From the NCBI GenBank assembly GCA_023453795.1, contig JAEXSP010000015.1, positions 116,465-180,464 of the forward strand: a stretch of DNA of 64,000 bases, read 5' to 3'. The notes beneath the pieces were generated by a model, which had not been told where the DNA came from, searched no databases, and saw nothing but the letters and a program-made list of their open reading frames with translations. The first letter of the stretch is position 1; each line of letters starts with the position of its first letter. The position numbers and the translations under genes are program-made. Positions 23,365-53,891 of this stretch are shown here, piece after piece. The DNA is from Bacillota bacterium. GTDB taxonomy: Bacteria > Bacillota > Clostridia > Acetivibrionales > JAEXSP01.

Positions 23365-24654
23365 CTATCTGATAAAGTACCGGACAGATCTCGCCATGCC
23401 GGATTTTTTGATCTTCCTTTCCTCAAGTAACTCGTTTATTAGCTTGAGCGCAAGTTGTTTGGTAATAGATAAACTTGACTCTATATCCTTACGAGACAGG
23501 TCTCCTTTATCAGTAATAAGCCTCAATATTTCCTGCTTCTGTTCCTCTTCTGAAAGAACGGCTATATGAGCTGTAAGTTTCGGAAGCGTAATAAGGAAGG
23601 AGGCTGGGGCAGGTTGTATTTTAGGTTTGCGCAATGTTTCCGAATAACTTTCGAAGATTTTTTTAATGCCGGTACCATAGCTTTCAATTAACTCCAAACG
23701 GTAAAAAACATCAGCGATAATGGGATTGCGCGGTTGAGACACGCCATTCATAATATCAATCACGGTTATCCCTTTAACAAGTCCCCCTATGGACACAAAC
23801 TCCATGCGATCCTCATACACGTTAATGATGATGCTTCCCGAATAATCATAGTCTCTATGAATGACAGCATTAAGCAAAGCCTCACGGATTGCCTCCGGAG
23901 GATAATCCGGATGATCAATCCTTTTAAGACCGTCAAAAGTGGAGTTTTGATTGTTGCTCAAGTTCACATATTCATAAGCCTCGTCCATTTGCTTAAGGAT
24001 AGAGCCGAAAAATTCTTTGCGGGCTTTAAACTTGGTTTTCCCTGTTCCTTCGTAGACGGCGCATTTGATGCTATGCTCACATTGGTCGGACAGAAGCAGC
24101 GCCGCATTGGTATAATATCCATCGGCGTCTATCAGCTTGAGCGTGCGGCGATTCTGCTGTGTAAAAGGAAGCCCCGCGTCCGCAAAATATTTTTCCGTAT
24201 AAGAAAAGGTCAAATCCTGATTCAGGCAGCGTGATTTATCAAAAGCCATGCCATCACTTTCACGCAGCATCTGACGGATTGCTTCATCCGTTGCAGGCAC
24301 GGATGACACCCCATGCCGGACAAAGACGCCGCTGGGTTTCAGTCCTTTATCCGAAAGATGGTAAGGCCGTTTCACCCCGCGCAGAACGGTAATGCGGATA
24401 ATCTTTGCACCGTCTTCGTCCATCGCTTCGATGGAGGTGTACGCCGTTAAATCGGGCTTAATCCCATCTCGAATCATATTACCGATTTGCGCCATCACTT
24501 CATCCGGATTCGATACGCCAACCGCTTGACCGTTATTATCAATGCCTATATAAATTGTTCCGCCATCGGTATTAGCCAAGGCGACAACTTCTTTTTTGAA
24601 ATCGGCATTTACTTCGCTTTTAAGCTCAACCGTTGCGCTCTCCTCATATTTCAT
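23365..24654 (-). CDS. putative DNA-binding/ATPase-like regulator (AlbA_2/Schlafen-type N-terminal domain + HATPase_c_4-like + C-terminal wHTH)
   Basis: 'ESATVELKSE...VVALANTDGGTIYIGIDNNG' is typical of AlbA_2 'divergent AAA' proteins. The C-terminus is 'EILRLITDKGDLSRKDI'. GGAGG lies upstream of the ATG at 24654. Confidence 0.65.
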   Translation of the reverse strand: MKYEESATVELKSEVNADFKKEVVALANTDGGTIYIGIDNNGQAVGVSNPDEVMAQIGNMIRDGIKPDLTAYTSIEAMDEDGAKIIRITVLRGVKRPYHLSDKGLKPSGVFVRHGVSSVPATDEAIRQMLRESDGMAFDKSRCLNQDLTFSYTEKYFADAGLPFTQQNRRTLKLIDADGYYTNAALLLSDQCEHSIKCAVYEGTGKTKFKARKEFFGSILKQMDEAYEYVNLSNNQNSTFDGLKRIDHPDYPPEAIREALLNAVIHRDYDYSGSIIINVYEDRMEFVSIGGLVKGITVIDIMNGVSQPRNPIIADVFYRLELIESYGTGIKKIFESYSETLRKPKIQPAPASFLITLPKLTAHIAVLSEEEQKQEILRLITDKGDLSRKDIESSLSITKQLALKLINELLEERKIKKSGMARSVRYFIR

Positions 24655-24667
24655 AACAAAAACCTCC

Positions 24668-24836
24668 AAAATCGTTATGTATCGTTACAATCGTAATTAT
24701 ATAACGATTCTATAACGATTACAAGATAAATCGCTAATTTATCAAGGTTTCTGGGCGATTTTCCATCGTCAAAAATCGACGATAGACAAGCAAAATCGTT
24801 TTAATCGTTATGAGAAAACGATATTTATGACGATTC
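24668..24836. repeat. array of at least 10 short ATCGT/ACGAT motifs (iteron- or operator-like)
   Basis: atcgttat, atcgttac, atcgtaat, taacgatt (x2), aatcgtttt, aatcgttat, aaacgata and gacgattc lie within about 170 bp, directly upstream of the 23365..24654 gene. Confidence 0.6.
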
Positions 24837-26390: not shown

Positions 26391-29039
26391 ATGAAAAAAC
26401 TTGTCATTGGAATATTGGCTCATGTAGATGCAGGCAAGACGACATTATCCGAGAGCATGCTTTATTTGAGCGGTAAAATTGGAAAATTAGGAAGAGTGGA
26501 CAATAAGGATGCCTACCTTGATACCTATGAGCTTGAAAGGGCAAGAGGAATCACCATTTTCTCCAAACAAGCCATATTGGATATAGGAGAGACTCAGGTC
26601 ACCTTACTGGATACCCCGGGACATGTTGATTTTTCAGCTGAAACTGAGAGAACACTTCAGGTGCTGGACTATGCCATTTTAGTGATAAGCGGTGCGGACG
26701 GCGTGCAGGGCCATACCGTAACATTGTGGCGTCTGCTTGACATGTACCGGATTCCTGTTTTTTTGTTCGTGAATAAGATGGATCAGAGCGGGACGGATAA
26801 GGACAAGTTATTAAAAGAAATTAAAAAGCAGCTGGGTGATGGCTGCATTGAATTCGGGCAGGTTCATACGGACAGCTTTTACGACCAATTGGCCATGTGT
26901 GATGAAACAATGCTGGAAGCTTATCTGGAAACAGGACATGTTGAAGCGGAGCACATTAAAAAGGCTGTCAGGGAGCGCAAAATATTTCCCTGCTTTTTCG
27001 GTTCAGCTTTAAAGCTGGAGGGCATAGAACAGTTTATGCAGGGTATTGCAGGCTATGCCGACGCACCCCGCTATCCCGATGAATTCGGGGCCAAAATCTT
27101 CAAGCTAACTCGGGACGAGCAAGGTAACCGTCTTACCCATATGAAGCTTACAGGCGGAAAATTGAAGGTGAAGGATGTCTTAACAAATGGCAGCTGGGAA
27201 GAGAAAGTTAATCAAATCCGTTTATATTCCGGGCAAAAATTTCAGGCAGTTAATGACATAGAGGCAGGTTCTGTATTTGCAGTAACAGGGCTCAGCCAAA
27301 CCAGGCCCGGGGAAGGCCTTGGAACGGAGAAAGCATCAAACGCACCTGTTTTGGAGCCTGTTCTCTCCTATCAGATCATACTTCCGGAAGGCTGCGATCC
27401 AAGGGCGATGCTTCCCAAACTCCGTCAAATTGAAGAAGAAGAACCGGAGCTTCATATTGCCTGGGATGAGCAGCTGCAGGAAATTCAGGCACAGATCATG
27501 GGGGATGTACAGATTGAAATTCTGCAGAGTATAATACAAAGCCGTTTTGGAACTAAGATAACCTTCGATGCCGGAAGGATTGTATATAAAGAGACAATCG
27601 CCAATATTGCAGAAGGGGTGGGACACTTTGAACCTCTTCGGCATTATGCAGAGGTTCACTTGTTGCTGGAGGCGGGTGAGCCGGGAAGCGGACTTCAGTT
27701 CGGAGTTGAATGCAGTGAGGATTTGTTGGGCAAAAGCTGGCAAAGGCTTATTTTAACGCATCTGGAGGAAAAAGCACATAAGGGTGTTCTGACTGGTTCA
27801 GCGATTACAGATATGAAAATCACTTTGGTCTCCGGCAAAGCTCACAATAAGCATACAGAAGGCGGCGACTTCAGAGAGGCTACTTACCGTGCGGTTCGTC
27901 AGGGCTTAAAGGAAGCGGAATCCATATTGTTGGAGCCTTATTATGCCTTTCAACTGGAATTGCCTGAGAAAATGGTCGGAAGAGCTATGACCGATATCGA
28001 GAAAATGCACGGCACTTGTAAAATATCACAGACCGATGGCGAAACGGCGGTTCTTGAGGGCTGTGCCCCTGTTATCACCATGAGGAATTATCAAAAAGAG
28101 GTAACTGCCTATACCAAAGGTCTCGGCAGACTTTTTTGTACATTAAAAGGGTATGAACCATGTCATAATGCGGAAGAGGTAATAGAAAGCATCGGGTATG
28201 ATTCCGAAAAAGACTTCGGAAATCCGACCGGTTCTGTATTCTGCACACATGGGGCAAGCTTTTTCGTGGGTTGGGATGAGGTAAAGGAGCATATGCATGT
28301 GGAAAGCTTTCTACAGGATAAAAACGGTTTTTCCGAGGAAATAATACCAAACCATGCCTCATACTCGGAGGAAAGGCATATCAGTATAGATGAAATTGAC
28401 CAAATTTTTAACAACACCTTTTATGCAAACCAGGGGAAGAAGACTATCTGGAAGAGAAGCAAAACAGTCCGCGACAGTTATTATGAACCGTCTGCCAACA
28501 TCAGCAGACAGAGGGAAATCTTAGAACAGTATCTCCTTGTGGATGGCTATAATGTGATTCACGCATGGCCTGAGTTAAGGGGGCTTACAGATGATAACAT
28601 GGACGCTGCCAGAATGAAATTGCTTGATTGTCTAAGTAATTATCAGGGTATCAAAAAATGTCAGATCATCGTTGTGTTCGATGCTTACCGTGTTGAAGGT
28701 CATCCGGAGGAAGTAATCGAATACCATAATATCCATGTGGTATATACCAGAGAAGCTCAAACCGCTGACGAGTATATAGAAAAATTCGCTCATGACAATC
28801 AAAAGAAATATCACATCACGGTTGCGACGTCAGACGGTTTACAACAGATTATTATAAGAGGCGCAGGATGCTCCCTGTTATCTGCCAGAGAATTGAAGGC
28901 TGAGGTTGACGGGGCCAATCAGAGATTAAGGCAGGAATATCAGGGAAAAATGGGTATCCACCGAAATCGTCTATCAGATGCATTGTCTCCGGAAGAAAAA
29001 CAGCGGATGGAGGAATCAACCGCAAGAGATGATGGATAA
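26391..29039 (+). CDS. EF-G/TetM-like translational GTPase fused to a C-terminal YacP/Rae1-type NYN ribonuclease domain
   Basis: G1 'AHVDAGKTT', G3 'DTPGH' and G4 'NKMD', with TetM-like domains up to about residue 650. Residues about 713-840, 'LLVDGYNVIHAWPEL...VVFDAY...TADEYIE...VATSDGLQQ', form a YacP-like NYN domain. Confidence 0.8.
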   Translation: MKKLVIGILAHVDAGKTTLSESMLYLSGKIGKLGRVDNKDAYLDTYELERARGITIFSKQAILDIGETQVTLLDTPGHVDFSAETERTLQVLDYAILVISGADGVQGHTVTLWRLLDMYRIPVFLFVNKMDQSGTDKDKLLKEIKKQLGDGCIEFGQVHTDSFYDQLAMCDETMLEAYLETGHVEAEHIKKAVRERKIFPCFFGSALKLEGIEQFMQGIAGYADAPRYPDEFGAKIFKLTRDEQGNRLTHMKLTGGKLKVKDVLTNGSWEEKVNQIRLYSGQKFQAVNDIEAGSVFAVTGLSQTRPGEGLGTEKASNAPVLEPVLSYQIILPEGCDPRAMLPKLRQIEEEEPELHIAWDEQLQEIQAQIMGDVQIEILQSIIQSRFGTKITFDAGRIVYKETIANIAEGVGHFEPLRHYAEVHLLLEAGEPGSGLQFGVECSEDLLGKSWQRLILTHLEEKAHKGVLTGSAITDMKITLVSGKAHNKHTEGGDFREATYRAVRQGLKEAESILLEPYYAFQLELPEKMVGRAMTDIEKMHGTCKISQTDGETAVLEGCAPVITMRNYQKEVTAYTKGLGRLFCTLKGYEPCHNAEEVIESIGYDSEKDFGNPTGSVFCTHGASFFVGWDEVKEHMHVESFLQDKNGFSEEIIPNHASYSEERHISIDEIDQIFNNTFYANQGKKTIWKRSKTVRDSYYEPSANISRQREILEQYLLVDGYNVIHAWPELRGLTDDNMDAARMKLLDCLSNYQGIKKCQIIVVFDAYRVEGHPEEVIEYHNIHVVYTREAQTADEYIEKFAHDNQKKYHITVATSDGLQQIIIRGAGCSLLSARELKAEVDGANQRLRQEYQGKMGIHRNRLSDALSPEEKQRMEESTARDDG

Positions 29040-35148: not shown

Positions 35149-35582
35149 AACATTCCCTCCCATTTCTCTCCATACAATATTAAACCTTAATGTTTCAAGC
35201 ATTGAAACATTCCAAACCCATTATATACCATTTTCTTCGGACAAGCAACCATAATTTATCTTTAATAATAAAATTCTCCACTTTTGCAGTATGCAGGTTT
35301 TCATGTAAAAAGAATCAAAACAATTAAGGTTTACCGACTGTAAAAGCTACGCAACTCACTGGAATAAAAGCCCTCACCCTCCATAATATATCTTATCAGG
35401 AACTTGACGGAAGCAATAATCTTGTATTATTATAGTAATTATTACTAACTTATGTAAATTTATAGGTTATTCAGAAAATATTTGTAATATTATAAAACAG
35501 GTTTAAAGAATAAAGCATTTCTCTAAGTACTGAGTATTAAAAATTCCATAATAAAATACATTAACTTGCAAAGGATTAACGT

Positions 35583-37610
35583 ATGAAAGTACTTCTCTGC
35601 AACATGCCATGGGGAAAAATTGATTTTCCGTCAATACAACTGGGTATTCTGAAAGCTTATCTGACGCAGCACGGAATAAGTGCCGATGTATCATATCAGA
35701 ATGTAAGATTCGCTGCCTTGATCGGTACGGAAACATACTCGAAGCTTTCAATCAGTTCCCGTTATTCCTTTCTTTTAGAATGGCTGTTTAACGAATTTAT
35801 TGTTAAAGACAAGTCAGTACTTAAGGAAATGCAGAAAAATCAGGAAAATGATATCAGGGAGCTTATTGAGCTAAAGGATACAAACCCTTTTTTGACGGAC
35901 GCCTATAATCCGATGCCTATCGGAAGTGCAAAAGCAGTAGATGAAAAGCAGATTGAAAATGAATTAATCAGGGTCTGCAGGAATATAAAAAATGAAACCA
36001 TCCCCACCTACTTTTATAAGCTGTTAAATGAAACCAACTTTTCCGAATACGACATAATAGGTTTTACCTGTTCTTTCAGTCAGACAGCCCCTTCAATCAG
36101 CTTCGCCAGAATCATAAAGGACAGGTTCAGAGATAAGGTGATAATACTAGGAGGCAATGGTGTAAGCGGTCATATGGGAATTGAGTACATGAAGGCTTTC
36201 CCATGGATTGATTACATTGTATACGGTGAGGGAGAAACTGCGCTTTCGGAACTGGTTCAATATCTCAGGGAAAATCATTACAGCTTAAAGCCCGGGCACA
36301 AGCTTACAGGGATTATCTACCGGGAGGAAGACGGAAATATCATAATGTCACCGCCGTCACCATCCCTTGAAATGGACAAAGTTCCCGTACCCGATTATGA
36401 TGATTATTTCAGTCAGATAAAAATAATTGAAAAAGCAGCAGGAATAAGCCTCAAGCAGGACACTTTACTGTTTGAAACAGCTAGGGGCTGTTGGTGGGGA
36501 GAAAAAAAGCAATGCAAATTCTGCAGCCTCAACGGTGAAAACCGGCATTTCCGGAGCAAAACCTGGGAAACGGTACTTGAGAATGTTCTTCAGCTATCGG
36601 AACGGTATGAAAAAAATGAACTTATTTGTGTCGACAATATATTGAGTTATCCCGCATTGGTTAATTTATTTTCAGCATTGCAGGAAAGGAATCTGAATCT
36701 TGATATATTCTGGGAAGTAAAGCCGAATCTATCAATGAAGCAGCTGAAAATATTGTCCGAAGCCGGGCTGAAAAAAGTTCAGGCAGGAATAGAAAGCTTT
36801 AGCACTGAAGTGATAAGACTTATCGAAAAAGGCTCGACCAGGTTGAAAAACGTGCAGTTTGTTAGAAACTGCTTCTCACTGGGAATTCATGTATCCTATA
36901 ATTTCCTCTTCGGTTTTCCCGGAGAAAAGCCGGAATACTACAATGACCTTGCAGAACTGTTTCCGCTTCTTCACCACATTACCCCTCCCCTCTATCCGCC
37001 AAGGCCTATGATTCTTCAAAGATTCAGCAGGTATTATGCAGAACCCGAAGAGAATCAATTAAAAAATATAAGACCTATGAAGCAGTACAATATCATTTAT
37101 CCGGTTAAAGAGCTGGATATAGAAAAAATATCCGCCACTTACTCTTTTGAATGCACTTCTGTACCTCAAAACCTTGACTATATGATCAGAATTACCGAAG
37201 CTATCGGAGATTGGAATATAGCTTTTGGGGGTAAAAACACTCCGATTCTTGCATATGAAACCGGAGTTAATTTTGTCAGGCTTTACGATTCAAGGTTTGA
37301 AAGGTTCAGGAGTATGATTCTAAGGGGCATTCCGGCAATGATTTACCTGCTTTGCGAAGAAATAAGACCACTTGACAGGGTTATTAGCGTCATAAGGGAA
37401 AAACATGCCGAAAAAGACCTGAAGGATGAGGAGATAACAAACCTTCTCAATGTCCTTGTCTCAGAAAAGCTCATGATTATGGAGGATGGAATGTATTTGT
37501 CGCTGGCGGTCAACCTCCGTCACATTTCGGACAGATTGCCTGAATACAGCCGAAGCAGGATAATCAATGCAAGATTGTTCAATGAATTTGATGAATTATT
37601 CAAAAAATAA
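35583..37610 (+). CDS. B12-binding-domain radical SAM enzyme (class B, RiPP-maturase type; probable C-methyltransferase)
   Basis: N-terminal Rossmann-like 'KVLLCNMPWGKIDFPSIQLGILKAYL...IIGFTCSF'. Cluster motif 'CWWGEKKQCKFC' (CX7CX2C). 675 aa. First gene of a tightly packed three-gene operon. Confidence 0.8.
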   Translation: MKVLLCNMPWGKIDFPSIQLGILKAYLTQHGISADVSYQNVRFAALIGTETYSKLSISSRYSFLLEWLFNEFIVKDKSVLKEMQKNQENDIRELIELKDTNPFLTDAYNPMPIGSAKAVDEKQIENELIRVCRNIKNETIPTYFYKLLNETNFSEYDIIGFTCSFSQTAPSISFARIIKDRFRDKVIILGGNGVSGHMGIEYMKAFPWIDYIVYGEGETALSELVQYLRENHYSLKPGHKLTGIIYREEDGNIIMSPPSPSLEMDKVPVPDYDDYFSQIKIIEKAAGISLKQDTLLFETARGCWWGEKKQCKFCSLNGENRHFRSKTWETVLENVLQLSERYEKNELICVDNILSYPALVNLFSALQERNLNLDIFWEVKPNLSMKQLKILSEAGLKKVQAGIESFSTEVIRLIEKGSTRLKNVQFVRNCFSLGIHVSYNFLFGFPGEKPEYYNDLAELFPLLHHITPPLYPPRPMILQRFSRYYAEPEENQLKNIRPMKQYNIIYPVKELDIEKISATYSFECTSVPQNLDYMIRITEAIGDWNIAFGGKNTPILAYETGVNFVRLYDSRFERFRSMILRGIPAMIYLLCEEIRPLDRVISVIREKHAEKDLKDEEITNLLNVLVSEKLMIMEDGMYLSLAVNLRHISDRLPEYSRSRIINARLFNEFDELFKK

Positions 37611-37631
37611 ACAATTTGGGGGAAGAAGAAA

Positions 37632-39023
37632 ATGTATAAAAACTACAAGACATCCGCATTTAATACAGTCGTAAGAATAGATGAAGACAATTCAATAATT
37701 TATAACAGCTTTTCACAAGGGCTTTCACTTCTGGATGTCAATGAAATGGGCATATACAAGAAATTTGACAAGCAGGAAGACGGAAATATTGACGCAGAAG
37801 AAAGGGACGTTATCGATCAACTGCTGATAAACAACTTTCTGGTTCCCTCCGACATTAACGAATTGGAGAAATTCACCGCGTACTACCGGCAGGAAAGGCA
37901 GAAAACGGACAACATGGGTATTACCGTGCTGCCTACCTTGAACTGCAACTTCGGGTGCAACTACTGCTTTGAAGGAAATGAAAAATCAAATACACTTATG
38001 CCTGAAAAAATCCAGCAGTCCATTATGAACCTTATCCAAAGGAAATCAGACACAATCAAAAGCCTGAATATAACCTGGTTTGGCGGAGAACCCCTAATGG
38101 GCCTGAACGTCATAAAGAAGCTGTCCAACAACATCATCCCGTTTTGCGATTCAAAGGGAATATCTTACTACGCATCGATTATCACAAACGGTTACATGCT
38201 TACCGAAGAAGTAATGGGAGAATTGTATATACGTAAGGTACGCACTGTTCAAATCACTCTTGACGGTGCCGAACAGGAGCACAACAGTACAAGATCCTTG
38301 AAAGCTACCGGCCAAGGCACATACGGCAGGATCCTGGACAACATTAAAGCTTACATAGATAAATACCCCATTAATACTATAATAAGAATCAATGTGGATA
38401 AGAAAAACGTGGACTCAATATTCGGACTTCTTGATGATCTTGAAAAAAGAGGTCTTAGCAATACAAGGCGTCTGTCGGTTTATTTCTCACCTATAGAGGC
38501 CTCTACGCGCGCCTGTGGGAAGGCAGTCGATGAGGTCATAAAAATGGAGAATTTCGCAAAACACGAATTTGAATTATATAAATACGCCATAGCAAAGGGA
38601 TTAAGTTACAATTCCCTCCCCTACCGCATGGTGGGTATCTGCACTTCCTGCCGCCCCAACGGCCTTGTAATCCTGCCCAACGGTGATCTTCACCGGTGCT
38701 GGGAAACAGTTTCCGACGAAAGCAAGAAAATAGGACTTCTTGAAAACGGCGACAACCTGACTAAAAATTCATTGGAAGCAAAATGGTCAGACTGGAGTCC
38801 CCTTAACTATGAAGAATGCCGGAATTGCCCCATATTACCCAATTGTGCAGGCTACTGCTCTTACAGGTTCATTTACGGTTCCGAATTCAAAAGTGCCTTC
38901 AAAACACCATGTCCGGCACTTAAATATAACATCAAAGACAAGCTGCTGTACTACATAGCTTCAAAAGATCCGGATATCGCTAAACTACTGCTTGTAAAAG
39001 GAATGGAGGGAGGTGTAAGTTAA
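37632..39023 (+). CDS. radical SAM/SPASM-domain peptide maturase
   Basis: Canonical 'CNFGCNYC'. Complete SPASM Cys pattern 'CTSCRPNGLVILPNGDLHRC...CRNCPILPNCAGYC...C'. Starts 21 nt after the previous gene. Confidence 0.85.
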   Translation: MYKNYKTSAFNTVVRIDEDNSIIYNSFSQGLSLLDVNEMGIYKKFDKQEDGNIDAEERDVIDQLLINNFLVPSDINELEKFTAYYRQERQKTDNMGITVLPTLNCNFGCNYCFEGNEKSNTLMPEKIQQSIMNLIQRKSDTIKSLNITWFGGEPLMGLNVIKKLSNNIIPFCDSKGISYYASIITNGYMLTEEVMGELYIRKVRTVQITLDGAEQEHNSTRSLKATGQGTYGRILDNIKAYIDKYPINTIIRINVDKKNVDSIFGLLDDLEKRGLSNTRRLSVYFSPIEASTRACGKAVDEVIKMENFAKHEFELYKYAIAKGLSYNSLPYRMVGICTSCRPNGLVILPNGDLHRCWETVSDESKKIGLLENGDNLTKNSLEAKWSDWSPLNYEECRNCPILPNCAGYCSYRFIYGSEFKSAFKTPCPALKYNIKDKLLYYIASKDPDIAKLLLVKGMEGGVS

Positions 39024-39067
39024 AGGTATTTTAATCATTAACAATAAATTTTAAGGAGGACTGAAAT

Positions 39068-39676
39068 ATGAAAAACTTTGTTAACATCGGTTTTAACGGT
39101 TATCCTGAGAGCAACGTAGATTCTGTTGTAAGAGGGTTTACAACGAATAAGGAACTCGTAGTGTTCAGCGTATCGCCTGACGAAGGCACAACAGCTTCAC
39201 TGCACGGGACAAAACTTGAATTGCCCAATGAGTTAGTCAAAATTAACGACTTAAAAACCCTGATCAATTACCTAAAAGGTGTATCAATGTCTGTGGAAAA
39301 TAATGTACTTAAAACACAAACTCTGCCGAGCAATGCGGCAATGTATATGAAAACAGCTCCTCTTGCCGACCAGGATTGTACAGCATACGGCGGATGCCCT
39401 GCAGATGGTGGTTGTGCAGCAGATGGCTGTGCAGCACACGGTGGCTGCGCGGCTCGTGCCGGGTGTGCAGCGGATGGCTGCGGAGGATATGGCGGCTGCG
39501 CTGCAGACGGAGGCTGTGCAGCACGTGGATGTGCAGCGGACGGAGGCTGTGGAGCAAATGTACCTTGTGCAGCTGATGGCTGCGTTGGACATGCATGCGG
39601 AGTTGATGCCTGCCCGGCAAATGTCAACATCGGGCCGTGTGCAATTGATATTCCTATATGCCCGATAATTCTGTAA
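39068..39676 (+). CDS. Cys/Gly/Ala-repeat precursor-like peptide (putative RiPP substrate)
   Basis: AAGGAGGA lies upstream of the ATG. Residues 1-103 contain no Cys. Residues 104-202 contain 17 Cys in reiterated G-C-[AP]-A-[DHR]-G(G) units. Confidence 0.75.
   Translation: MKNFVNIGFNGYPESNVDSVVRGFTTNKELVVFSVSPDEGTTASLHGTKLELPNELVKINDLKTLINYLKGVSMSVENNVLKTQTLPSNAAMYMKTAPLADQDCTAYGGCPADGGCAADGCAAHGGCAARAGCAADGCGGYGGCAADGGCAARGCAADGGCGANVPCAADGCVGHACGVDACPANVNIGPCAIDIPICPIIL
39377..39600 (+). repeat. imperfect 15-18 nt coding tandem repeats (TGYGCAGCNGAYGG(N)GGN), locally GC-rich
   Basis: tgtgcagcagatggc, tgtgcagcacacggtggc, tgtgcagcggatggc, tgcgctgcagacggaggc, tgtgcagcacgtgga, tgtgcagcggacggaggc and similar units. 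Confidence 0.8.
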
Positions 39677-39682
39677 TAAAAA

Positions 39683-39735
39683 CCTTGATAAAATATGCTC
39701 CTCTTTCAGATATAGAGGAGCATATTTTATCAAGG
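39683..39735. terminator. perfect 22-bp inverted repeat between convergent genes
   Basis: ccttgataaaatatgctcctct (39683-39704) pairs with agaggagcatattttatcaagg (39714-39735) across a 9-nt loop. The minus strand follows with ttttt. Confidence 0.7.
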
Positions 39736-39764: not shown

Positions 39765-41558
39765 TCATTCCTTTGGAAGCAATATATCAACCCTTGTGCC
39801 CTTACCGGGAGAGCTCTCAACCTTAATGCCGTATTCTTCACCGTAAAACACCTTAATCCTCTGATAGACATTTACTAGGCCTATATGGCTTTCAGCCTTA
39901 TTGTCAATCTCCTTCAGTGATTCGACAAGCCTGTCCAGCTCATCTTCCTTCATTCCCGAACCATTGTCTGCAACCGAAATACGAAGAAAATCCCCCGTTT
40001 CAATAACCGACACGGAAACAAGACCGGGTACTGATGAGTTCTCAAGTCCATGGACAAGAGCGTTTTCTACGATAGGTTGTATAAGCAGCGGAAGTATTTT
40101 CCTCTTTTCAAGGTTATATGGGCATTCCACGGTATAAGCTATCCTGTCGCCAAACCTGAATCTCTGAATTTCAAGGTATGCCCGTACTGTGTTTATTTCA
40201 TCAATCAGGTAAATCTGTTCATTGCCGAGCTTAAGGTTCTGCCTGATTATTCTCCCAAGCAGCATTACGATTTCGGCTATCTCGGTATTACCTGTACACA
40301 GCGCCTTCATTCTGACGGATTCCAGGGTATTAAACAGGAAATGAGGATTTATCTTGCTTATAAGCATTTTTAATTCCATTTCCTTTTGGTTGATTACCAG
40401 CTGTTTATTTTGAAGATTGACTCTTAGATTGTCCCTTGACAAATCATTCAGGTTTTTAACCATTCGGTTTAAATTTGAGGAGAGGGAGCCGATTTCGTCA
40501 TTCCCGCTTATTTTCGATATGTGATCCAGCTTTCCGGATGCAACTGTCTGCATGTCCATAGTCAGCTTCTTGATCCTTCTGCTTATAATATGTGAGAAAA
40601 GTATAATAATCACAACCGAAAGAAAAAGGCTAGAAAATGTGATAAGCAGCGAAGTATTCCTGATCTTTCGGGCCGATGAGGTAATATATTTGAGAGGGTA
40701 AATGCAGATTACCGAGAATTTCTCATCGTATTGGGTTGATGAAAGCACATTGAAGGTAATTTTACAAACCCGGTTTTTAAAAGTAACCTTTTCCGAATAC
40801 TGCGAGCCTTTATGGAATTTTGCATTTCCTAACACCTGTTCAAGCTTCCTGCCTTCAAAGCTTTTATTTTTTGCGGAAATGATATTTGCGGAATCGTCGC
40901 AAAGCAGTATGTCAAACTTCTCCTGTTCAAGAAATGCTGAAAGGTTATCCATGTTTACGTCAATTACCAGAACACCAAGAGGCTGCCCCATCTGGCTTTT
41001 AACAAATCTTATCAGGCATAATTGCTTACGGTTCCTTTGTTTGATAACTACCTCGTTCGTAATGTAACGCCATAGTATACGTCCCTTTTTATTTAAAGCG
41101 GATTTGAACCATTCCAGTTTCTCAATATCCTGAGTAACCGGAATAAACTCCCAATTATTCAGCAGAGACTTATTAAAGGAATAAAGTCTTATATAGGAAA
41201 TTTCACTATATAACCTTCTGAAGTCGGAAAACTCGCTGTATTTATTATAATCCCTTATTATATCCGCAGTTTTTGTGTATTGGGTGTTTAGAATCTTCTG
41301 AAGGTTTTCTTCGTAATACAGCTTGTTTGATATGTCAATCGGTATTTTAAGCGTATATTCAAGCCTCTTGCACACTCTCTCCGAGCTTTCTTCAATCTCA
41401 GCCGATGTACGTGAAGCCTCAACGGCATAGAGTTTCCCGGATAAAATCAACCCGATTGCAAGCACAGGCAGAAATACAACGAACAGGTAGAAAACCAGAA
41501 GTTTGCCTCTCATGCTTATGCTATTGAATTTAAATAGAAAACTTTTAAACATAATCAT
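39765..41558 (-). CDS. sensor histidine kinase (YesM-like) with no adjacent response regulator
   Basis: Two TM segments, HAMP, 'KINPHFLFNTLESV' H-box, and 'ADNGSGM' and 'HIGLVNV' ATPase motifs. Confidence 0.85.
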   Translation of the reverse strand: MIMFKSFLFKFNSISMRGKLLVFYLFVVFLPVLAIGLILSGKLYAVEASRTSAEIEESSERVCKRLEYTLKIPIDISNKLYYEENLQKILNTQYTKTADIIRDYNKYSEFSDFRRLYSEISYIRLYSFNKSLLNNWEFIPVTQDIEKLEWFKSALNKKGRILWRYITNEVVIKQRNRKQLCLIRFVKSQMGQPLGVLVIDVNMDNLSAFLEQEKFDILLCDDSANIISAKNKSFEGRKLEQVLGNAKFHKGSQYSEKVTFKNRVCKITFNVLSSTQYDEKFSVICIYPLKYITSSARKIRNTSLLITFSSLFLSVVIIILFSHIISRRIKKLTMDMQTVASGKLDHISKISGNDEIGSLSSNLNRMVKNLNDLSRDNLRVNLQNKQLVINQKEMELKMLISKINPHFLFNTLESVRMKALCTGNTEIAEIVMLLGRIIRQNLKLGNEQIYLIDEINTVRAYLEIQRFRFGDRIAYTVECPYNLEKRKILPLLIQPIVENALVHGLENSSVPGLVSVSVIETGDFLRISVADNGSGMKEDELDRLVESLKEIDNKAESHIGLVNVYQRIKVFYGEEYGIKVESSPGKGTRVDILLPKE

Positions 41559-51048: not shown

Positions 51049-52758
51049 TTATACTAAACTATTTGATGCTCTTGGTCTAAAGTCAATATCCAGTTTTTCT
51101 TTTAAATAATCTTTAAGAACAAAAACTTCAATCTTGTGTGCTTTACGAGGATTATCAAGGTAATACTTTGTATACTCACCTTGAGATAATGGTGCTTCTA
51201 TTTGCATTTTCCTTTCTTCTTTATTCACATCTGTAATAATATCATTATGCTTGATTTCAGTGTCCCAGCATATAATACTATGTAGATTTTCAAAAGAATG
51301 ATTGAATTTGTCAATTAAAAAATATTTAAATTCAACGTAATAAAGCTTTGAATTATATATAGGTGCACTATCAATGCCTTTAACTATCACATCAATGCCT
51401 GAATATGTATCATAGTCAATAATCTGGAAAGGAAATAGATTATTTTTGATAGTTAAAAGCTTTAATACTAAAGAATATACTCCACTCTCTCTTTCCGGCT
51501 TTACCAAAGTCTGACCATTGAATTGACAAATGTTAGCCTTATTAACCTTTTCTATTCTCCATTTAAAATCATTTTTTTCTTTTTCAGTAGTCTTATATGC
51601 TTCTGCTTCATCTTCAAGCCATGATAAATTTCTCCAGTCATCTCCTTCAATTATTTCATCATACAATCTTTTTACTTCATCCTTTATATCGGAAATTATC
51701 TCCATAGGGGTATTATCAACTGACCCACGGTTTGCGGTTAACCTCAACCCTTGACAATTAATAAACGCATGAAATTTAGTAAATTCTGACCCTTTATATG
51801 TAATCCATTCATTTTTTTTCTGAATGGGAATAAAATCTTTACAAAGCCAAAGACCATACCTTTCTTGAACAGTATAGGAACCTTCGGGAGCAGAATATCC
51901 TGGTCTCCTTAACATATTATTATATGCCTGTTTAACTTTATTACCTTCAATAAAAAAAACAGCTTCATAACTTATTTCTGGTGAGTTTTTTAAATTTCCT
52001 GTCTTAACAATTTTTTTACAATAATAATCTGGGGCTTTTGTTAAGTGCGTTTCGAATAACTTGTCAATTGATTCAGATTGATTTGGGAAAAAATGTCCAA
52101 ATCTAATTTTATGTTCTTCTGTACTATTCAAACCTTTTAAATATATTGAATCATTTCCGTTATCAAAATAATTAAACATCATTTCAATAGAACCAAACTT
52201 TGTAAACCATTTAATGTAGTCTTCAAGTATTTCTTTAGTAAACTTTGCCTTTTGATTATTGTTGTAGCCTAAGATTATTATTTCAGTACCAGAGTCGATA
52301 TTATGACAACTTTCTTCAACCACCTTAACTGTAGGTATCTTTCTATCAAATAGCGTTGCATAAGGTTCATCCATTTCAGCAGTTAATTTAATTCCATCCT
52401 TAACTGTAATAACTTTTATGTGTGAACTATTGAAATATACTTTTGTACCATGACCCTTCTCCCCAATTAACAAAGGATATTCTCTTTTGGTTGAATTCCC
52501 CAAATCAAAAAATGCTTGGAGTTCATCTATATTCATACCTCTGCCATTATCAATAATTTTTATTTCTAATAGATTTTTCCCTTTTATAGTGATTACATTA
52601 AATATAATCCGTATTACTAAAGATTTCCCTTTGATTTTCGCATCAAATGAATTACTTATTGCTTCTCTTACTAATTCAAGTGGGTTTGAAAAGTCATTAG
52701 CTATTTCAATAAATTCTTGAGTATGGTCAACCTTTGGTTCCAAAATGAATTCTCCCAT
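51049..52758 (-). CDS. GHKL-superfamily (HSP90/MORC-type HATPase_c_3-like) ATPase with about 350-aa unassigned C-terminal region
   Basis: N-box 'ELVREAISNSFDA', G1 'IIDNGRGM' and G2 'IGEKGHGTKVYF'. No kinase H-box or TM segment. Confidence 0.7.
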   Translation of the reverse strand: MGEFILEPKVDHTQEFIEIANDFSNPLELVREAISNSFDAKIKGKSLVIRIIFNVITIKGKNLLEIKIIDNGRGMNIDELQAFFDLGNSTKREYPLLIGEKGHGTKVYFNSSHIKVITVKDGIKLTAEMDEPYATLFDRKIPTVKVVEESCHNIDSGTEIIILGYNNNQKAKFTKEILEDYIKWFTKFGSIEMMFNYFDNGNDSIYLKGLNSTEEHKIRFGHFFPNQSESIDKLFETHLTKAPDYYCKKIVKTGNLKNSPEISYEAVFFIEGNKVKQAYNNMLRRPGYSAPEGSYTVQERYGLWLCKDFIPIQKKNEWITYKGSEFTKFHAFINCQGLRLTANRGSVDNTPMEIISDIKDEVKRLYDEIIEGDDWRNLSWLEDEAEAYKTTEKEKNDFKWRIEKVNKANICQFNGQTLVKPERESGVYSLVLKLLTIKNNLFPFQIIDYDTYSGIDVIVKGIDSAPIYNSKLYYVEFKYFLIDKFNHSFENLHSIICWDTEIKHNDIITDVNKEERKMQIEAPLSQGEYTKYYLDNPRKAHKIEVFVLKDYLKEKLDIDFRPRASNSLV

Positions 52759-53108
52759 AAGTATCCCCCATTTTTAGTAATAATACTTACTATTTCTACA
52801 ATAATTATGAAATTCCTTCCATCAAATATAAAAATTCTTCTATTTAGAAGTAGACTATGGCTAAAAATAAAAAATAAAATAAAATTAAAAGACATAATTT
52901 ACTTTAATTTACTTTTATATTATAATCTTTATTGTAAAATTAATCAGAGAACTACAATTTGAAATGAATTAAACTAATAGTTCTTGCAATCAAGTCAGCT
53001 CCGGTATCATTAGTTCAAACATTCAGATGGTTCTACCCGAGATATTTCATTAAGCCGTTTTTTTAGTATTGTTTTTGATTGTATCAGCTAATTACAAGGG
53101 GGAATACT

Positions 53109-53891
53109 GTGTTTGCATTTATAGATGAAAGTGGATATCCGCACCCTAATGACACAACCCAAAATCCGGTATTGGCAGCAGTCTGTTTTTCACAAGAACA
53201 AATTAGAAGTGTAATCAAGAAAATGTATAGATTAAAAAATGAAATATATGGTGAAGGTAACAATATGGAACTTAAGGCAAAAATGGTTTTAAGACCGAGA
53301 ATTGTTGAAACAAACTCCAAACACAAAGAATTTGTGGATAGAATAATAAATGAAGTCTTATGCGGAACACCAGACACAAAGGTATTTGCTGTAGTTATGA
53401 ATAAACCTGAAAAGAAAATTGATGGACTTAACAATATTGCAAGACTTCCTAATTATTATAGACTGCTTCTACAAAGGATTAATAATTACGCACAAATATC
53501 CAATACAAAATGTGTCATTGCCTTAGATACAAAAGACGAGGGGAAAGATATAATTATTTCTAAGCAATTGAAAAACTATATTTTTAAATCTAAAGAGGGA
53601 AATAACTATTCTTCAATATTGGAAACAGCGTTTTTTGTTAACTCTAAAGTTGAAGAATGCATTCAATTAGCCGATTTATGTGCAGGCATTATCAGACATA
53701 AATATGAAACAAGCTATTCTCAAACACCACAAAATAACTTTTCAAATTGGATTAATACTCTATATAACTACTTGCAAGCGTTGACACAGAATTTACCTAA
53801 TCGCTGCTATCCTAATATTGATATTGAAAACGAGGAAAATCCAATACTGTACGGAATTTATAAAATAAACAGCAATGATCTGATTTGTTAA
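53109..53891 (+). CDS. DUF3800-family protein
   Basis: N-terminal 'FAFIDESG' and distal 'IQLADLCAG' match the two DUF3800 signature motifs. The GTG at 53109 follows AAGGGGG. The track ORF starts at TTG 53079. Confidence 0.65.
   Translation: MFAFIDESGYPHPNDTTQNPVLAAVCFSQEQIRSVIKKMYRLKNEIYGEGNNMELKAKMVLRPRIVETNSKHKEFVDRIINEVLCGTPDTKVFAVVMNKPEKKIDGLNNIARLPNYYRLLLQRINNYAQISNTKCVIALDTKDEGKDIIISKQLKNYIFKSKEGNNYSSILETAFFVNSKVEECIQLADLCAGIIRHKYETSYSQTPQNNFSNWINTLYNYLQALTQNLPNRCYPNIDIENEENPILYGIYKINSNDLIC

What the first reader, a model, noticed from the sequence alone, without database searches (positions are those of the whole stretch)
35583..39735. Compact three-gene radical-SAM operon (B12-rSAM + SPASM-rSAM + Cys-repeat peptide): candidate RiPP system I do not recognise
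What the sequence shows:
- Three co-directional genes are separated by only 21 and 44 nt. The second and third have a strong Shine-Dalgarno sequence (GGGGGAAG, AAGGAGGA) and the first a weaker AAAGGA.
- A TTGACG-18 nt-TATTAT promoter-like site lies at 35404-35433, and a perfect 22-bp hairpin closes the unit.
- Gene 1 has a Rossmann-like cobalamin-binding N-terminus and an unusual CX7CX2C cluster motif, 'CWWGEKKQCKFC'.
- Gene 2 has the canonical 'CNFGCNYC' and a complete seven-Cys SPASM pattern (C-x15 containing G-x4-C, then CX2CX5CX3C, then a final C).
- Gene 3 encodes a 202-aa peptide whose C-terminal half is a Cys/Gly/Ala repeat.

Established knowledge: class B (B12) radical SAM enzymes methylate unactivated carbons in RiPPs such as the proteusins. 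SPASM maturases install Cys-derived thioethers (sactipeptides, ranthipeptides) or other crosslinks on a peptide encoded next to them.

Inference: this is a RiPP-type pathway producing a heavily crosslinked and possibly C-methylated product. I do not recognise the precursor as SCIFF, a sactipeptide, a NHLP/Nif11 peptide or any other named family. The cluster also lacks a dedicated protease or exporter.
Basis: partly seen in the sequence, partly recalled or inferred. Interest (0 to 1): 0.9.

Follow-up and report, generated by a model that had tools for sequence, protein, structure and literature searches.

The report
Radical-SAM cassette modifying a cysteine-repeat protein
Three adjacent genes encode two radical-SAM enzymes and the cysteine-repeat protein they most likely cross-link and methylate; this is a rare, unstudied branch of an enzyme family that databases list but nobody appears to have characterised.

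Summary
Three co-directional ORFs lie at 35583-39676 with 21- and 44-nt gaps, and a perfect 22-bp hairpin follows.

- **Gene 1** is a TIGR03975 B12-radical-SAM C-methyltransferase. Its CX7CX2C motif is the family hallmark, not an oddity.
- **Gene 2** is an RRE-SPASM maturase that scores just under the TIGR04463 cut-off (509.5 vs 525 bits). Its model matches the thioether synthase CteB over its full length.
- **Gene 3** (202 aa) hits no curated model. It belongs to a rare family: 9 close homologs, and 44 clusters among 1.84 billion representatives.

Gene 3 has a conserved N-terminal tag, a folded ~70-aa domain, and a core of C-[A/G]-[A/G]-[D/N/..] units. These units form a 17-residue, three-Cys super-repeat that ends in GPCAxDIPxCPIIL.

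A gene-2-type enzyme sits next to the precursor in 10 of 10 informative loci, including Heliomicrobium gestii and Methanococcus voltae. The B12 enzyme is present in 7 of 10. Wider TIGR04463 partners carry the same kind of tail, some on 600-980-aa lectin/crystallin proteins.

Most likely, gene 2 installs serial Cys thioethers and gene 1 C-methylates the Ile/Pro-rich tail. The chemistry is inferred, not shown. I rate it a new variant of a known kind, of moderate interest.

The parts
35404..35433 (+). Sigma-70-like promoter match (TTGACG-18-TATTAT) in the 380-nt gap upstream of gene 1
   Evidence: 10 of 12 consensus positions match. However, 15 such sites occur in the region against 11.7 +/- 3.6 expected, so this is a consensus match only. 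No Rfam element lies in the leader.
35583..37610 (+). Gene 1: B12-dependent radical SAM C-methyltransferase (675 aa), TIGR03975 family, with cluster motif CWWGEKKQCKFC
   Evidence: TIGR03975 at 520.3 bits (cut-off 281.85), covering model positions 1-606. PF04055 hit, plus a sub-threshold B12-binding hit; the closest solved structure is TokK (7KDX). CX7CX2C is present in 37 of 37 homologs.
37632..39023 (+). Gene 2: RRE-radical SAM-SPASM peptide maturase (463 aa), with CNFGCNYC and seven SPASM Cys; sits at the edge of the TIGR04463 family
   Evidence: TIGR04463 at 509.5 bits (cut-off 525); PapB 111, SCIFF maturase 94, SPASM domain 46.6. AF2 model with pLDDT 90 and an N-terminal beta3-alpha3 domain. 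The best PDB match is CteB (5WHY/5WGG) over 463 alignment columns, E 2e-19, TM 0.67-0.74; lists the invariant Cys.
39068..39676 (+). Gene 3: 202-aa substrate protein (precursor)
   Evidence: no Pfam or NCBIfam match; 9 homologs among 5.8e9 proteins; 44 clusters among 1.84e9 representatives. Always found next to a gene-2-type enzyme.
39068..39118 (+). Gene 3 residues 1-17 (MKNFVNIGFNGYPESNV): conserved N-terminal tag predicted to be unstructured; inferred recognition sequence for the RRE of gene 2
   Evidence: M1, K2, G11 and S15 are invariant, and N10 nearly so; pLDDT is below 50; related N-termini (MK[YF][LI]V.P, MKFLVKPLNGFVPS) occur on TIGR04463 partners. The recognition role is inference.
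39119..39331 (+). Gene 3 residues 18-88: small folded domain (beta-beta-beta-alpha-alpha-beta-beta) of unknown fold family
   Evidence: pLDDT 72-89 per 10-residue block; no Foldseek PDB match with E below 0.5; the domain is specific to this precursor family, and is duplicated in P0017, P0018 and P0029.
39377..39673 (+). Gene 3 residues 104-202: Cys/Ala/Gly/Asp repeat core with 17 Cys, a 17-residue super-repeat and the tail GPCAIDIPICPIIL
   Evidence: Cys spacings are 6,6,5 x4 then 5,5,9,7; lag-17 periodicity is shared with distant members; position +3 after Cys is D/N/E/Q in 61% of cases, while +1, +2 and +4 are 68-83% Ala/Gly; the tail is invariant.
39382..39585 (+). 51-nt DNA repeat that encodes the 17-residue super-repeat (102-nt reference unit found three times, at 51-nt offsets)
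   Evidence: family D1, copies 69-75% identical to the reference, start-to-start spacing 51 nt.
39683..39735 (.). Perfect 22-bp hairpin between gene 3 and the convergent histidine-kinase gene; probably a shared or bidirectional terminator
   Evidence: arms 100% complementary with a 9-nt loop; dG -34.9 kcal/mol, z -8.3. The U-tract is on the minus strand only.

Best explanation
This is a self-contained peptide/protein-modification cassette. It is a Clostridia/Heliobacteria branch of the TIGR04463 (SPASM) plus TIGR03975 (B12) 'Cys-repeat' systems.

**Shown here**
- Gene 3 is a conserved protein that is always encoded beside a gene-2-type enzyme.
- Gene 2 has the full architecture of a thioether-forming RiPP maturase: an RRE-like N-domain, a radical SAM core and a seven-Cys SPASM domain. 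It matches CteB over its full length.
- Gene 1 is a bona fide member of the CX7CX2C B12-rSAM C-methyltransferase family.

**Inferred mechanism**
1. The RRE of gene 2 binds the conserved, unstructured N-terminal tag of gene 3.
2. Working along the periodic core, gene 2 cleaves SAM reductively and uses the 5'-deoxyadenosyl radical to abstract a hydrogen from an acceptor residue.
3. It then joins that carbon to a Cys sulfur, forming a sactionine- or ranthionine-type thioether. This repeats up to about 15 times.
4. The register C-small-small-[Asp/Asn/...] is strictly kept, which points to small Cys(i)-Xaa(i+3) rings, with Asp/Asn beta-carbons as the likeliest acceptors.
5. Gene 1 then, or in parallel, transfers methyl groups from methylcobalamin to unactivated side-chain carbons. 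The most plausible targets are Ile/Val/Pro in the conserved hydrophobic tail (AIDIPICPIIL).

The biological role of the product, and how or whether it is exported or cleaved, is not known.
For: **Family assignment:**

**Synteny:**
- The full trio occurs in H. gestii, GCA_037193965, Logan contigs, a rearranged order in L008, a close relative L090 and Lachnospiraceae UBA938 (L009).
- SPASM plus precursor without B12 occurs in L003, L091 and M. voltae L094.

**Characterised relatives:** All of gene 2's characterised relatives by HMM or structure that act on Cys make thioethers. These are PapB at 111 bits, SCIFF/CteB at 94 bits and the top PDB hit, and QhpD at 77 bits. Background on these enzymes is in PMC11002830.

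**Fixed Cys/+3 polar register:** It holds in three independent groups, at 61%, 72% and 57% D/N/E/Q. In the window clade, where Cys spacing alternates 6-6-5, the polar residue stays locked to the preceding Cys.

**B12 target:**
- All 26 TIGR04463 loci that carry a TIGR03975-like gene have a partner ending in [IVLF]PxxPx1-3. None of the 18 partners without that tail has one. Fisher p = 1.7e-8, not corrected for phylogeny.
- CX7CX2C enzymes of known function methylate such residues. PoyC acts on Val/Ile C-beta (PMC11285071). MpcB acts on Pro, Val, Ile and Thr C-beta (bioRxiv 10.1101/2024.01.23.576971).
Against: - No chemistry was observed. Thioether formation, ring size, acceptor atoms and methylation sites are all inference.
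- One third of the +3 positions in the window clade are His, Tyr or Arg, which are not known ranthionine acceptors.
- Gene 2's second-best structural match is TigE, a cyclopropylglycine synthase, so fold alone does not fix the reaction.
- Within the gene-3 family, the CPIIL-type tail also occurs in loci without a B12 enzyme (P0009, P0010, M. voltae). The tail therefore does not depend on the methyltransferase.
- There is no leader-cleavage motif, protease, exporter or immunity gene.
- The N-terminal part is a folded domain rather than a typical leader.
- Gene 2 is formally below the TIGR04463 cut-off, and gene 3 fails the CefA model.
Confidence: 0.6

Rival explanations
1. The enzymes and substrate are the same, but the chemistry differs. 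Gene 2 would not make Cys thioethers; it would perform another SPASM reaction on the core. Candidates are C-C cross-linking or cyclopropanation as in TigE, Cys-to-formylglycine-type oxidation as in anSME, epimerisation, or thio-oxazole formation.
For: The model of gene 2 also matches TigE (8VPO, E 1.2e-17), SuiB and anSME well. The closer HMM families (Clo7bot, CefB, FlmE/OhkG, geopeptide) have no known chemistry. His, Tyr and Arg at many +3 positions do not fit known ranthionine acceptors.
Against: Cysteine is the only strictly periodic, invariant residue of the core in every branch. The remaining core is mostly Ala and Gly, which offer little for C-C chemistry. The best sequence and structure matches among characterised enzymes are the thioether synthases CteB and PapB. 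The anSME motif C-x-P/A-x-R is absent.
Confidence: 0.2
2. Gene 3 is not a substrate. It would be a Cys-rich metal- or Fe-S-binding protein (metallothionein-like, a cluster donor or a chaperone) that serves the two radical SAM enzymes, whose real substrate is encoded elsewhere.
For: The 17 regularly spaced Cys among small residues could chelate metals. The protein has a folded N-domain and no cleavage site. No export or processing genes are nearby.
Against: Gene 2 belongs to a family curated as a RiPP maturase, whose partners include classical leader peptides with a ...LSDDQLEAVAGG double-glycine site followed by the same Cys repeat (L031, L047, L049, L053 and L060). Partner sequences range from 43 to 983 aa while keeping only the repeat and the tail, which is typical of substrates rather than accessory factors. 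No other candidate substrate is conserved in the loci.
Confidence: 0.07
3. The cassette is a decaying or silent remnant, and gene 3 is a chance ORF in a GC-rich repeat.
For: Long antisense ORFs overlap the repeat. The B12 gene of the close relative L090 is split by a frameshift. The promoter match is not above chance.
Against: All three ORFs are intact with good ribosome-binding sites. The ends of gene 3 are invariant across Firmicutes and a methanogen, while the repeat number varies in frame. The 17-residue register is preserved.
Confidence: 0.02

Closest known systems
TIGR04463 family radical SAM/SPASM RiPP maturase with 'Cys-every-fifth' type partners (NCBIfam TIGR04463; NF038108 CefA / NF038107 CefB). 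These are computational families; I found no experimental paper on them.
   Same: - Gene 2 aligns end to end with the TIGR04463 model at 509.5 bits.
- About 38% of the 80 loci (30) also carry a TIGR03975-like B12 enzyme with the same CWWG.K..C.FC motif.
- Partners share the C-small-small-D/N-small unit.
- Their C-termini are related: CAIDIIPIIPGI and GPCAINVIPLVPG, compared with GPCAIDIPICPIIL here.
- The M. voltae enzyme that NCBI names as TIGR04463 sits beside precursors with the same N-domain as gene 3.
   Different: - Gene 2 and its clade score 495-522 bits, just under the 525 cut-off. NCBI labels the Heliobacterium copies only 'SPASM domain-containing protein'.
- Gene 3 fails the CefA model (8.8 bits vs 30).
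- Gene 3 has its own N-terminal domain, found in about 30 clusters.
- Its Cys spacing is 6-6-5, not 5.
Ranthipeptides and sactipeptides (freyrasin/PapB, thermocellin/CteB, SCIFF), and QhpD acting on QhpC
   Same: - The maturase has an RRE-rSAM-SPASM architecture.
- CteB is the best sequence and structure match in the PDB.
- The substrate is Cys-rich, with Asp at a fixed offset from Cys. Freyrasin has six Cys-Asp S-C-beta links (PMC11002830).
- QhpD shows that such enzymes can cross-link a protein subunit, not only a cleaved peptide.
   Different: - HMM scores are far below the family cut-offs: PapB 111 vs 340, SCIFF maturase 94 vs 425, QhpD 77 vs 453.
- The precursor is 202 aa, with 17 Cys in a 17-residue super-repeat.
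- By my recollection, freyrasin's Asp sits four residues after Cys (CX3D), whereas here the polar residue is at +3. I did not check this against a source.
- The cassette includes a B12 methyltransferase.
- No cross-link has been demonstrated.
CX7CX2C B12-rSAM C-methyltransferases of RiPPs: PoyB/PoyC (polytheonamide, proteusins) and MpcB (clavusporins)
   Same: - Gene 1 is a TIGR03975 member with the same CX7CX2C cluster motif (PMC11285071; bioRxiv 10.1101/2024.01.23.576971).
- The conserved tail of gene 3 is rich in Ile, Pro and Val, the residues those enzymes beta-methylate.
   Different: - There is no NHLP or Nif11 leader.
- There is no epimerase.
- There is no DUF5825 partner, S9 peptidase or transporter.
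- The bulk of the core is Cys/Ala/Gly/Asp rather than hydrophobic.

Membership tests
TIGR03975 (RiPP maturation radical SAM C-methyltransferase) - gene 1 | Full-length HMM score above the curated cut-off (281.85 bits) | tested here: met
   520.3 bits, model positions 1-606 of 606.
TIGR03975 (RiPP maturation radical SAM C-methyltransferase) - gene 1 | CX7CX2C radical SAM cluster motif plus an N-terminal cobalamin-binding domain | tested here: met
   CWWGEKKQCKFC is present, and the motif occurs in 37 of 37 homologs. The Pfam B12-binding hit is sub-threshold (24 vs 32.1 bits). TokK aligns over residues 154-455.
TIGR03975 (RiPP maturation radical SAM C-methyltransferase) - gene 1 | Cobalamin-dependent C-methyl transfer to a peptide | not testable with these tools
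   Requires co-expression or an in vitro assay.
TIGR04463 family radical SAM/SPASM RiPP maturase - gene 2 | HMM score above the curated cut-off (525 bits) | tested here: not met
   509.5 bits. Clade mates score 495-522, while a core member (L010) scores 744. This is a borderline sister clade, not a formal member.
TIGR04463 family radical SAM/SPASM RiPP maturase - gene 2 | Adjacent Cys-repeat partner protein | tested here: met
   Found in 52 of 80 loci of the wider family and in 10 of 10 distinct informative loci of the gene-3 family.
SPASM radical SAM enzymes - gene 2 | CX3CX2C plus the seven-Cys C-terminal motif for two auxiliary 4Fe-4S clusters | tested here: met
   C105/C109/C112 and C337, C356, C396, C399, C405, C409 and C427 are invariant in 31 sequences. 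TIGR04085 scores 46.6 bits against a cut-off of 27.
RRE-dependent RiPP maturases - gene 2 | N-terminal PqqD-like RiPP recognition element | tested here: inconclusive
   The AF2 model has beta3-alpha3 topology over residues 5-89, and the full-length Foldseek alignment to CteB spans 463 columns. No Pfam PqqD hit was found, even at E <= 10.
Cys-every-fifth RiPP peptide CefA (NF038108) - gene 3 | HMM score above the cut-off (30 bits) | tested here: not met
   8.8 bits for the whole protein and 10.9 bits for the core alone. Controls L015 (46.1 bits) and L043 (36.3 bits) pass.
Cys-every-fifth maturase CefB (NF038107) - gene 2 | HMM score above the cut-off (600 bits) | tested here: not met
   244.1 bits.
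Ranthipeptide / SCIFF systems | Maturase passes the PapB (340 bits) or SCIFF-maturase (425 bits) cut-off, and the precursor is SCIFF-like | tested here: not met
   111.2 and 94.4 bits. Gene 3 has no NCBIfam hit at E <= 0.01.
Ranthipeptide / sactipeptide (chemical definition) | Cys S to C-alpha (sacti) or to C-beta/C-gamma (ranthi) thioether cross-links in the product | not testable with these tools
   Requires high-resolution MS/MS and NMR of the modified protein.
Proteusins | NHLP/Nif11-type leader on the precursor | tested here: not met
   Gene 3 has no NHLP or Nif11 model hit. Its N-domain is a separate family. Some wider TIGR04463 partners do have ...LSDDQLEAVAGG leaders.

The most novel reading that the evidence does not exclude
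The N-terminal part of gene 3 may not be a disposable leader, and the product may not be a small secreted peptide. Instead, the cassette would make a mature protein. In that reading a folded domain carries a radical-SAM-stapled, 17-residue-periodic Cys solenoid or 'ladder' with a hypermethylated hydrophobic tip.

This would be one instance of a widespread, undescribed class. In that class the same enzyme pair decorates the C-terminal tail of full-length proteins, including 600-980-aa ricin-lectin/crystallin/fascin proteins and a PAAR-like DUF4280 protein. The tail would serve as an effector, anchoring or membrane-active module.
Probability: 0.3. Interest if true: 0.85.

Novelty: new variant of a known kind. 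Interest (0 to 1): 0.55.

Why it matters
**If the inferred chemistry is right.** One small operon would install about 15 thioether staples and several C-methyl groups on a genetically simple, periodic scaffold. That is a compact three-gene target for heterologous expression. It could also give the first chemistry for the TIGR04463 / 'Cys-every-fifth' families, which occur in many phyla but which I could not find characterised anywhere.

**What the comparative data add.**
- They define a new precursor domain family.
- They reveal a conserved 17-residue, three-Cys register.
- They yield a testable rule: Cys(i) pairs with the residue at i+3.
- They show a strong link between the B12 enzyme and an Ile/Pro-rich C-terminal tail.

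**The wider question.** In the larger family the same tail is fused to big lectin-like proteins. This raises the question of whether RiPP-type radical SAM maturases routinely modify full-size proteins. Cultured carriers (Heliomicrobium gestii, Methanococcus voltae) make that question approachable.

Tried and rejected
- **Literature.** None found an experimental study of this system. FlmE and OhkG are only gene names in peptide-arginase clusters, and that paper does not describe their radical SAM enzymes (PMC12703449).
- **Pfam and NCBIfam on gene 3 and its halves.** Nothing was found except an 8.8-10.9-bit CefA trace.
- **AF2 of gene 3.** The core was not modelled (pLDDT about 30). Foldseek of the N-domain against the PDB gave no match with E below 0.5.
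- **Pfam PqqD/RRE search.** The N-terminus of gene 2 and the C-terminus of gene 1 gave no hit.
- **Rfam scan of the operon and its leader.** Nothing was found, so no riboswitch is detectable.
- **A protease, exporter or immunity gene.** None occurs in the whole 64-kb window. A MacB/HlyD-type ABC system follows the trio in L002 only, so it is not conserved.
- **The idea that the core is a pentapeptide-repeat or hexapeptide beta-helix.** I dropped this as untestable here, since the 6-6-5 spacing fits neither and AF2 gives no fold.
- **A structure job with locus-derived sequences.** I repeated it with proteins.

Full report
**1. What is in the sequence**

Gene 1 is 35583-37610 (675 aa), gene 2 is 37632-39023 (463 aa) and gene 3 is 39068-39676 (202 aa). 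All are on the + strand, separated by 21 and 44 nt. Purine-rich ribosome-binding strings lie 7-8 nt upstream of each ATG.

A perfect 22-bp inverted repeat with a 9-nt loop lies at 39683-39735. It is very stable: dG -34.9 kcal/mol, z = -8.3 against shuffles. The run of U that makes an intrinsic terminator follows the stem only on the minus strand. There it would end the convergent histidine-kinase gene (39765-41558). For the operon itself it is a hairpin without a U-tail.

The promoter-like site at 35404-35433 exists. It is one of 15 such matches, where chance gives 11.7 +/- 3.6, so it is not evidence by itself. No Rfam family matches anywhere in the unit.

**2. The two enzymes**

*Gene 1.* It is an unambiguous member of TIGR03975, 'RiPP maturation radical SAM C-methyltransferase': 520 bits against a cut-off of 282, over the full model length. 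Its nearest solved structure is the B12-rSAM methyltransferase TokK.

It is in fact the signature of this family.
- The string CWWG.K..C.FC is present in 37 of 37 homologs collected here.
- The motif is described for PoyC (PMC11285071) and for MpcB of the clavusporin pathway (bioRxiv 10.1101/2024.01.23.576971).

*Gene 2.* It has CX3CX2C and seven SPASM cysteines that are invariant across 31 homologs. Its best HMM is TIGR04463, 'radical SAM/SPASM RiPP maturase', at 509.5 bits, just under the curated cut-off of 525. The next hits are uncharacterised Cys-peptide maturase models (Clo7bot 271, CefB 244, FlmE/OhkG 242). The thioether enzymes follow: PapB 111, SCIFF maturase 94 and QhpD 77.

An AlphaFold model built on 31 homologs is confident (pLDDT 90). 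It has an N-terminal beta3-alpha3 domain, as in RiPP recognition elements. Its best PDB match over the full length is the thioether synthase CteB (E 2e-19, TM 0.67-0.74). TigE, SuiB and anSME come next.

**3. The 202-aa protein**

Gene 3 matches no Pfam or NCBIfam model. Its only trace is 8.8 bits to the 'Cys-every-fifth RiPP peptide CefA' model, whose cut-off is 30.

It is rare. There are nine homologs among 5.8 billion clustered proteins. A profile search finds 44 clusters among 1.84 billion representatives.

The family has a clear anatomy:
- **N-terminal tag.** A conserved but unstructured stretch (MKNFVNIGFNGYPESNV; M1, K2, G11 and S15 invariant).
- **Folded domain.** About 70 residues (pLDDT 72-89 per 10-residue block, beta-beta-beta-alpha-alpha-beta-beta) with no PDB counterpart. 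It is duplicated in some members.
- **Linker.**
- **Core.** Units of C-[A/G]-[A/G]-[polar]-[A/G].
- **Tail.** A nearly invariant ending, GPC.....CPIIL, with fixed final Cys spacings of 9 then 6 or 7 (9 then 7 in the window).

In the window clade the Cys spacing is strictly 6-6-5, repeated four to five times. In distant members, including Methanococcus voltae, it is 5-5-7. Both give a 17-residue super-repeat with three Cys. At the DNA level this is a 51-nt repeat.

The residue three positions after each Cys is D/N/E/Q in 61% of cases in the window clade, 72% in other members and 57% in the wider TIGR04463 partners. Positions +1, +2 and +4 are 67-85% Ala/Gly. When the spacing changes, the polar residue stays locked to the preceding Cys rather than the following one.

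**4. Co-occurrence**

| Locus | Source | Genes present |
|---|---|---|
| Window (= L089) | metagenome scaffold | B12 + SPASM + precursor |
| L090 | close relative, different downstream flank | trio; B12 gene frameshifted |
| L001 | Heliomicrobium gestii | trio |
| L002 | GCA_037193965 | trio |
| L004-L007 | four Logan contigs, one protein | trio |
| L009 | Lachnospiraceae UBA938 | trio (precursor cut by contig end) |
| L008 | Logan contig | trio, order precursor-SPASM-B12 |
| L003 | ENA contig | SPASM + precursor only |
| L091/L092 | JGI and Logan contigs | SPASM + precursor only |
| L094 | Methanococcus voltae | two tandem precursors + SPASM |

A gene-2-type enzyme is therefore adjacent in 10 of 10 distinct informative loci, and the B12 enzyme in 7 of 10. 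The flanking genes differ from locus to locus. In the window they are cellulosomal and sporulation genes of a Clostridia-type genome, with no protease, exporter or immunity gene within about 30 kb. The three genes are thus the conserved unit.

**5. The wider family**

I scanned species-representative genomes with an alignment of the SPASM enzyme. This returned 80 loci at 28-57% identity, from Myxococcota, Cyanobacteria, Proteobacteria, Actinomycetota, Bacteroidota, Methanothrix and others.

- A TIGR03975-like gene lies beside the SPASM gene in 30 of them.
- In 52 there is an adjacent ORF with a Cys/Ala/Gly/Asp repeat, of the form ...ACGAAACGADAC....
- Core members pass TIGR04463 (L010 at 744 bits), and some partners pass the CefA model.
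- Many partner tails end in C[AG][IVL][DN][IVL]IP[IVL]IP[GFL]I or GPCAINVIPLVPG. These are visibly related to GPCAIDIPICPIIL in the window.
- Some partners have classical leaders ending in LSDDQLEAVAGG.
- Others are 475-983-aa proteins with RicinB, beta/gamma-crystallin, fascin/FRG1 or tectonin domains, and one has a PAAR-like DUF4280 domain.

Presence of the B12 gene tracks the Ile/Pro-rich tail. The 2x2 counts are 26 (tail, B12), 7 (tail, no B12), 0 (no tail, B12) and 18 (neither), giving Fisher p = 1.7e-8. This is not corrected for phylogeny. Two of the seven exceptions are B12 genes cut off by a contig end.

The window cassette is therefore a divergent branch of a large, curated-but-uncharacterised system. 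This branch has so far turned up in Firmicutes (Clostridia-type genomes, Heliobacteria) and in Methanococcus voltae.

**6. Mechanism**

*Shown.* The enzyme families, the architecture, the strict adjacency and the periodic Cys/+3 register.

*Inferred.*
1. Gene 2 docks on the N-terminal tag of gene 3 through its RRE-like domain.
2. It installs serial thioethers from the core cysteines.
3. The fixed C-x-x-[D/N] register and the PapB, QhpD and NxxcB precedents (PMC11002830) make Cys(i)-to-residue(i+3) beta-carbon links the leading guess.
4. Gene 1 C-methylates unactivated carbons. By analogy with PoyC and MpcB, and from the tail/B12 association, the likeliest targets are Ile, Val and Pro of the C-terminal tail.

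*Weak points.*
- His, Tyr or Arg occupy a third of the +3 sites.
- TigE-like chemistry is not excluded by fold.
- CPIIL-type tails also exist without a B12 enzyme.
- The folded N-domain, and the lack of cleavage and export functions, do not fit a classical secreted RiPP.

I put 0.6 on the overall explanation. That splits into roughly 0.85 that gene 3 is the substrate of gene 2 and roughly 0.5 on thioether chemistry as described.

**7. Comparison, novelty and score**

The cassette works like a ranthi- or sactipeptide pathway combined with a proteusin/clavusporin-type methyltransferase. It fails the membership cut-offs of PapB, SCIFF, CefA/CefB and, narrowly, TIGR04463. Only gene 1 is a formal family member.

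Ten literature searches found no experimental work on TIGR04463 or CefAB systems. This library is not exhaustive.

I class the finding as a new variant of a known kind. However, uncharacterised radical-SAM RiPP clusters are common and the enzyme families are already catalogued. Interest is 0.55 rather than 0.9.

The most novel reading not excluded is that the product is a modified protein rather than a cleaved peptide. It would belong to a broad class in which these enzymes decorate C-terminal tails of full-size proteins (probability about 0.3).

Noticed in passing
L010:7634-9607, L045:3452-5920, L070:7548-10280, L076:7533-8960, L017:7510-8496 (and L011, L013, L014, L016, L019, L021, L024, L067): In the wider TIGR04463 family, the Cys-repeat 'precursor' is often a 475-983-aa protein. 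These carry RicinB-lectin, beta/gamma-crystallin, fascin/FRG1-like or tectonin domains, and one carries a PAAR-like DUF4280 domain. All begin with MK[YF][LI]V.P and end in ...CAIDIIPIIPGI. This suggests radical-SAM tail modification of full-size proteins.
   Followed up: partly
L094:3079-4865 (Methanococcus voltae, GCA_024807655.1): Two tandem precursors share the gene-3-type N-domain. One has a 5-5-7 Cys repeat. The other has a non-repetitive core with repeated ...SCVIQVG... and ...SMPYCPIVH motifs. They sit next to a SPASM enzyme that NCBI names as TIGR04463. A second TPR-containing rSAM-SPASM gene and an S-layer/NosD-like protein are nearby.
   Followed up: partly
window 26391-29039 (+): An 882-aa protein combines an EF-G/Tet(M)-like translational GTPase (GTP_EFTU, EF-G domains II, IV and C) with a C-terminal YacP-like NYN nuclease domain. 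This seemed an unusual fusion to me, but I did not check how common it is.
   Followed up: no
window 23365-24669 (-), 51049-52758 (-), 53079-53891 (+): Three genes may be defence-related: a Schlafen AlbA_2 plus HATPase_c_4 protein, an HATPase_c_3 protein and a DUF3800 protein. They are scattered among cellulosomal (GH9-CBM3-dockerin, GDSL-dockerin), RsgI anti-sigma and SpoIIE genes.
   Followed up: no
L090:1594-3622: In the closest relative with a different downstream flank (76% identical precursor), the B12-rSAM gene is split by a frameshift into 89- and 593-aa ORFs. This is either an assembly error in the MAG or incipient loss of the methyltransferase.
   Followed up: partly
window 37632-39023 (gene 2), residue C295: An eighth cysteine (C295), about 40 residues upstream of the SPASM motif, is invariant in 31 homologs. 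It aligns to a non-Cys position in CteB. It could be a fourth ligand to auxiliary cluster I, unlike CteB, where I recall that site being open for the substrate Cys.
   Followed up: no
L030:4955-5929 and L044:5163-5912: Partners of TIGR04463-like enzymes in a Protochlamydia MAG and in Hormoscilla show faint similarity to the gene-3 N-domain (HMM E = 0.004 and 0.4). Their cores differ: a Cys-containing 'CGARAS..D.TGG' type repeat in L030, and CAAVG/GKGGGG repeats ending in AGWPP in L044.
   Followed up: partly
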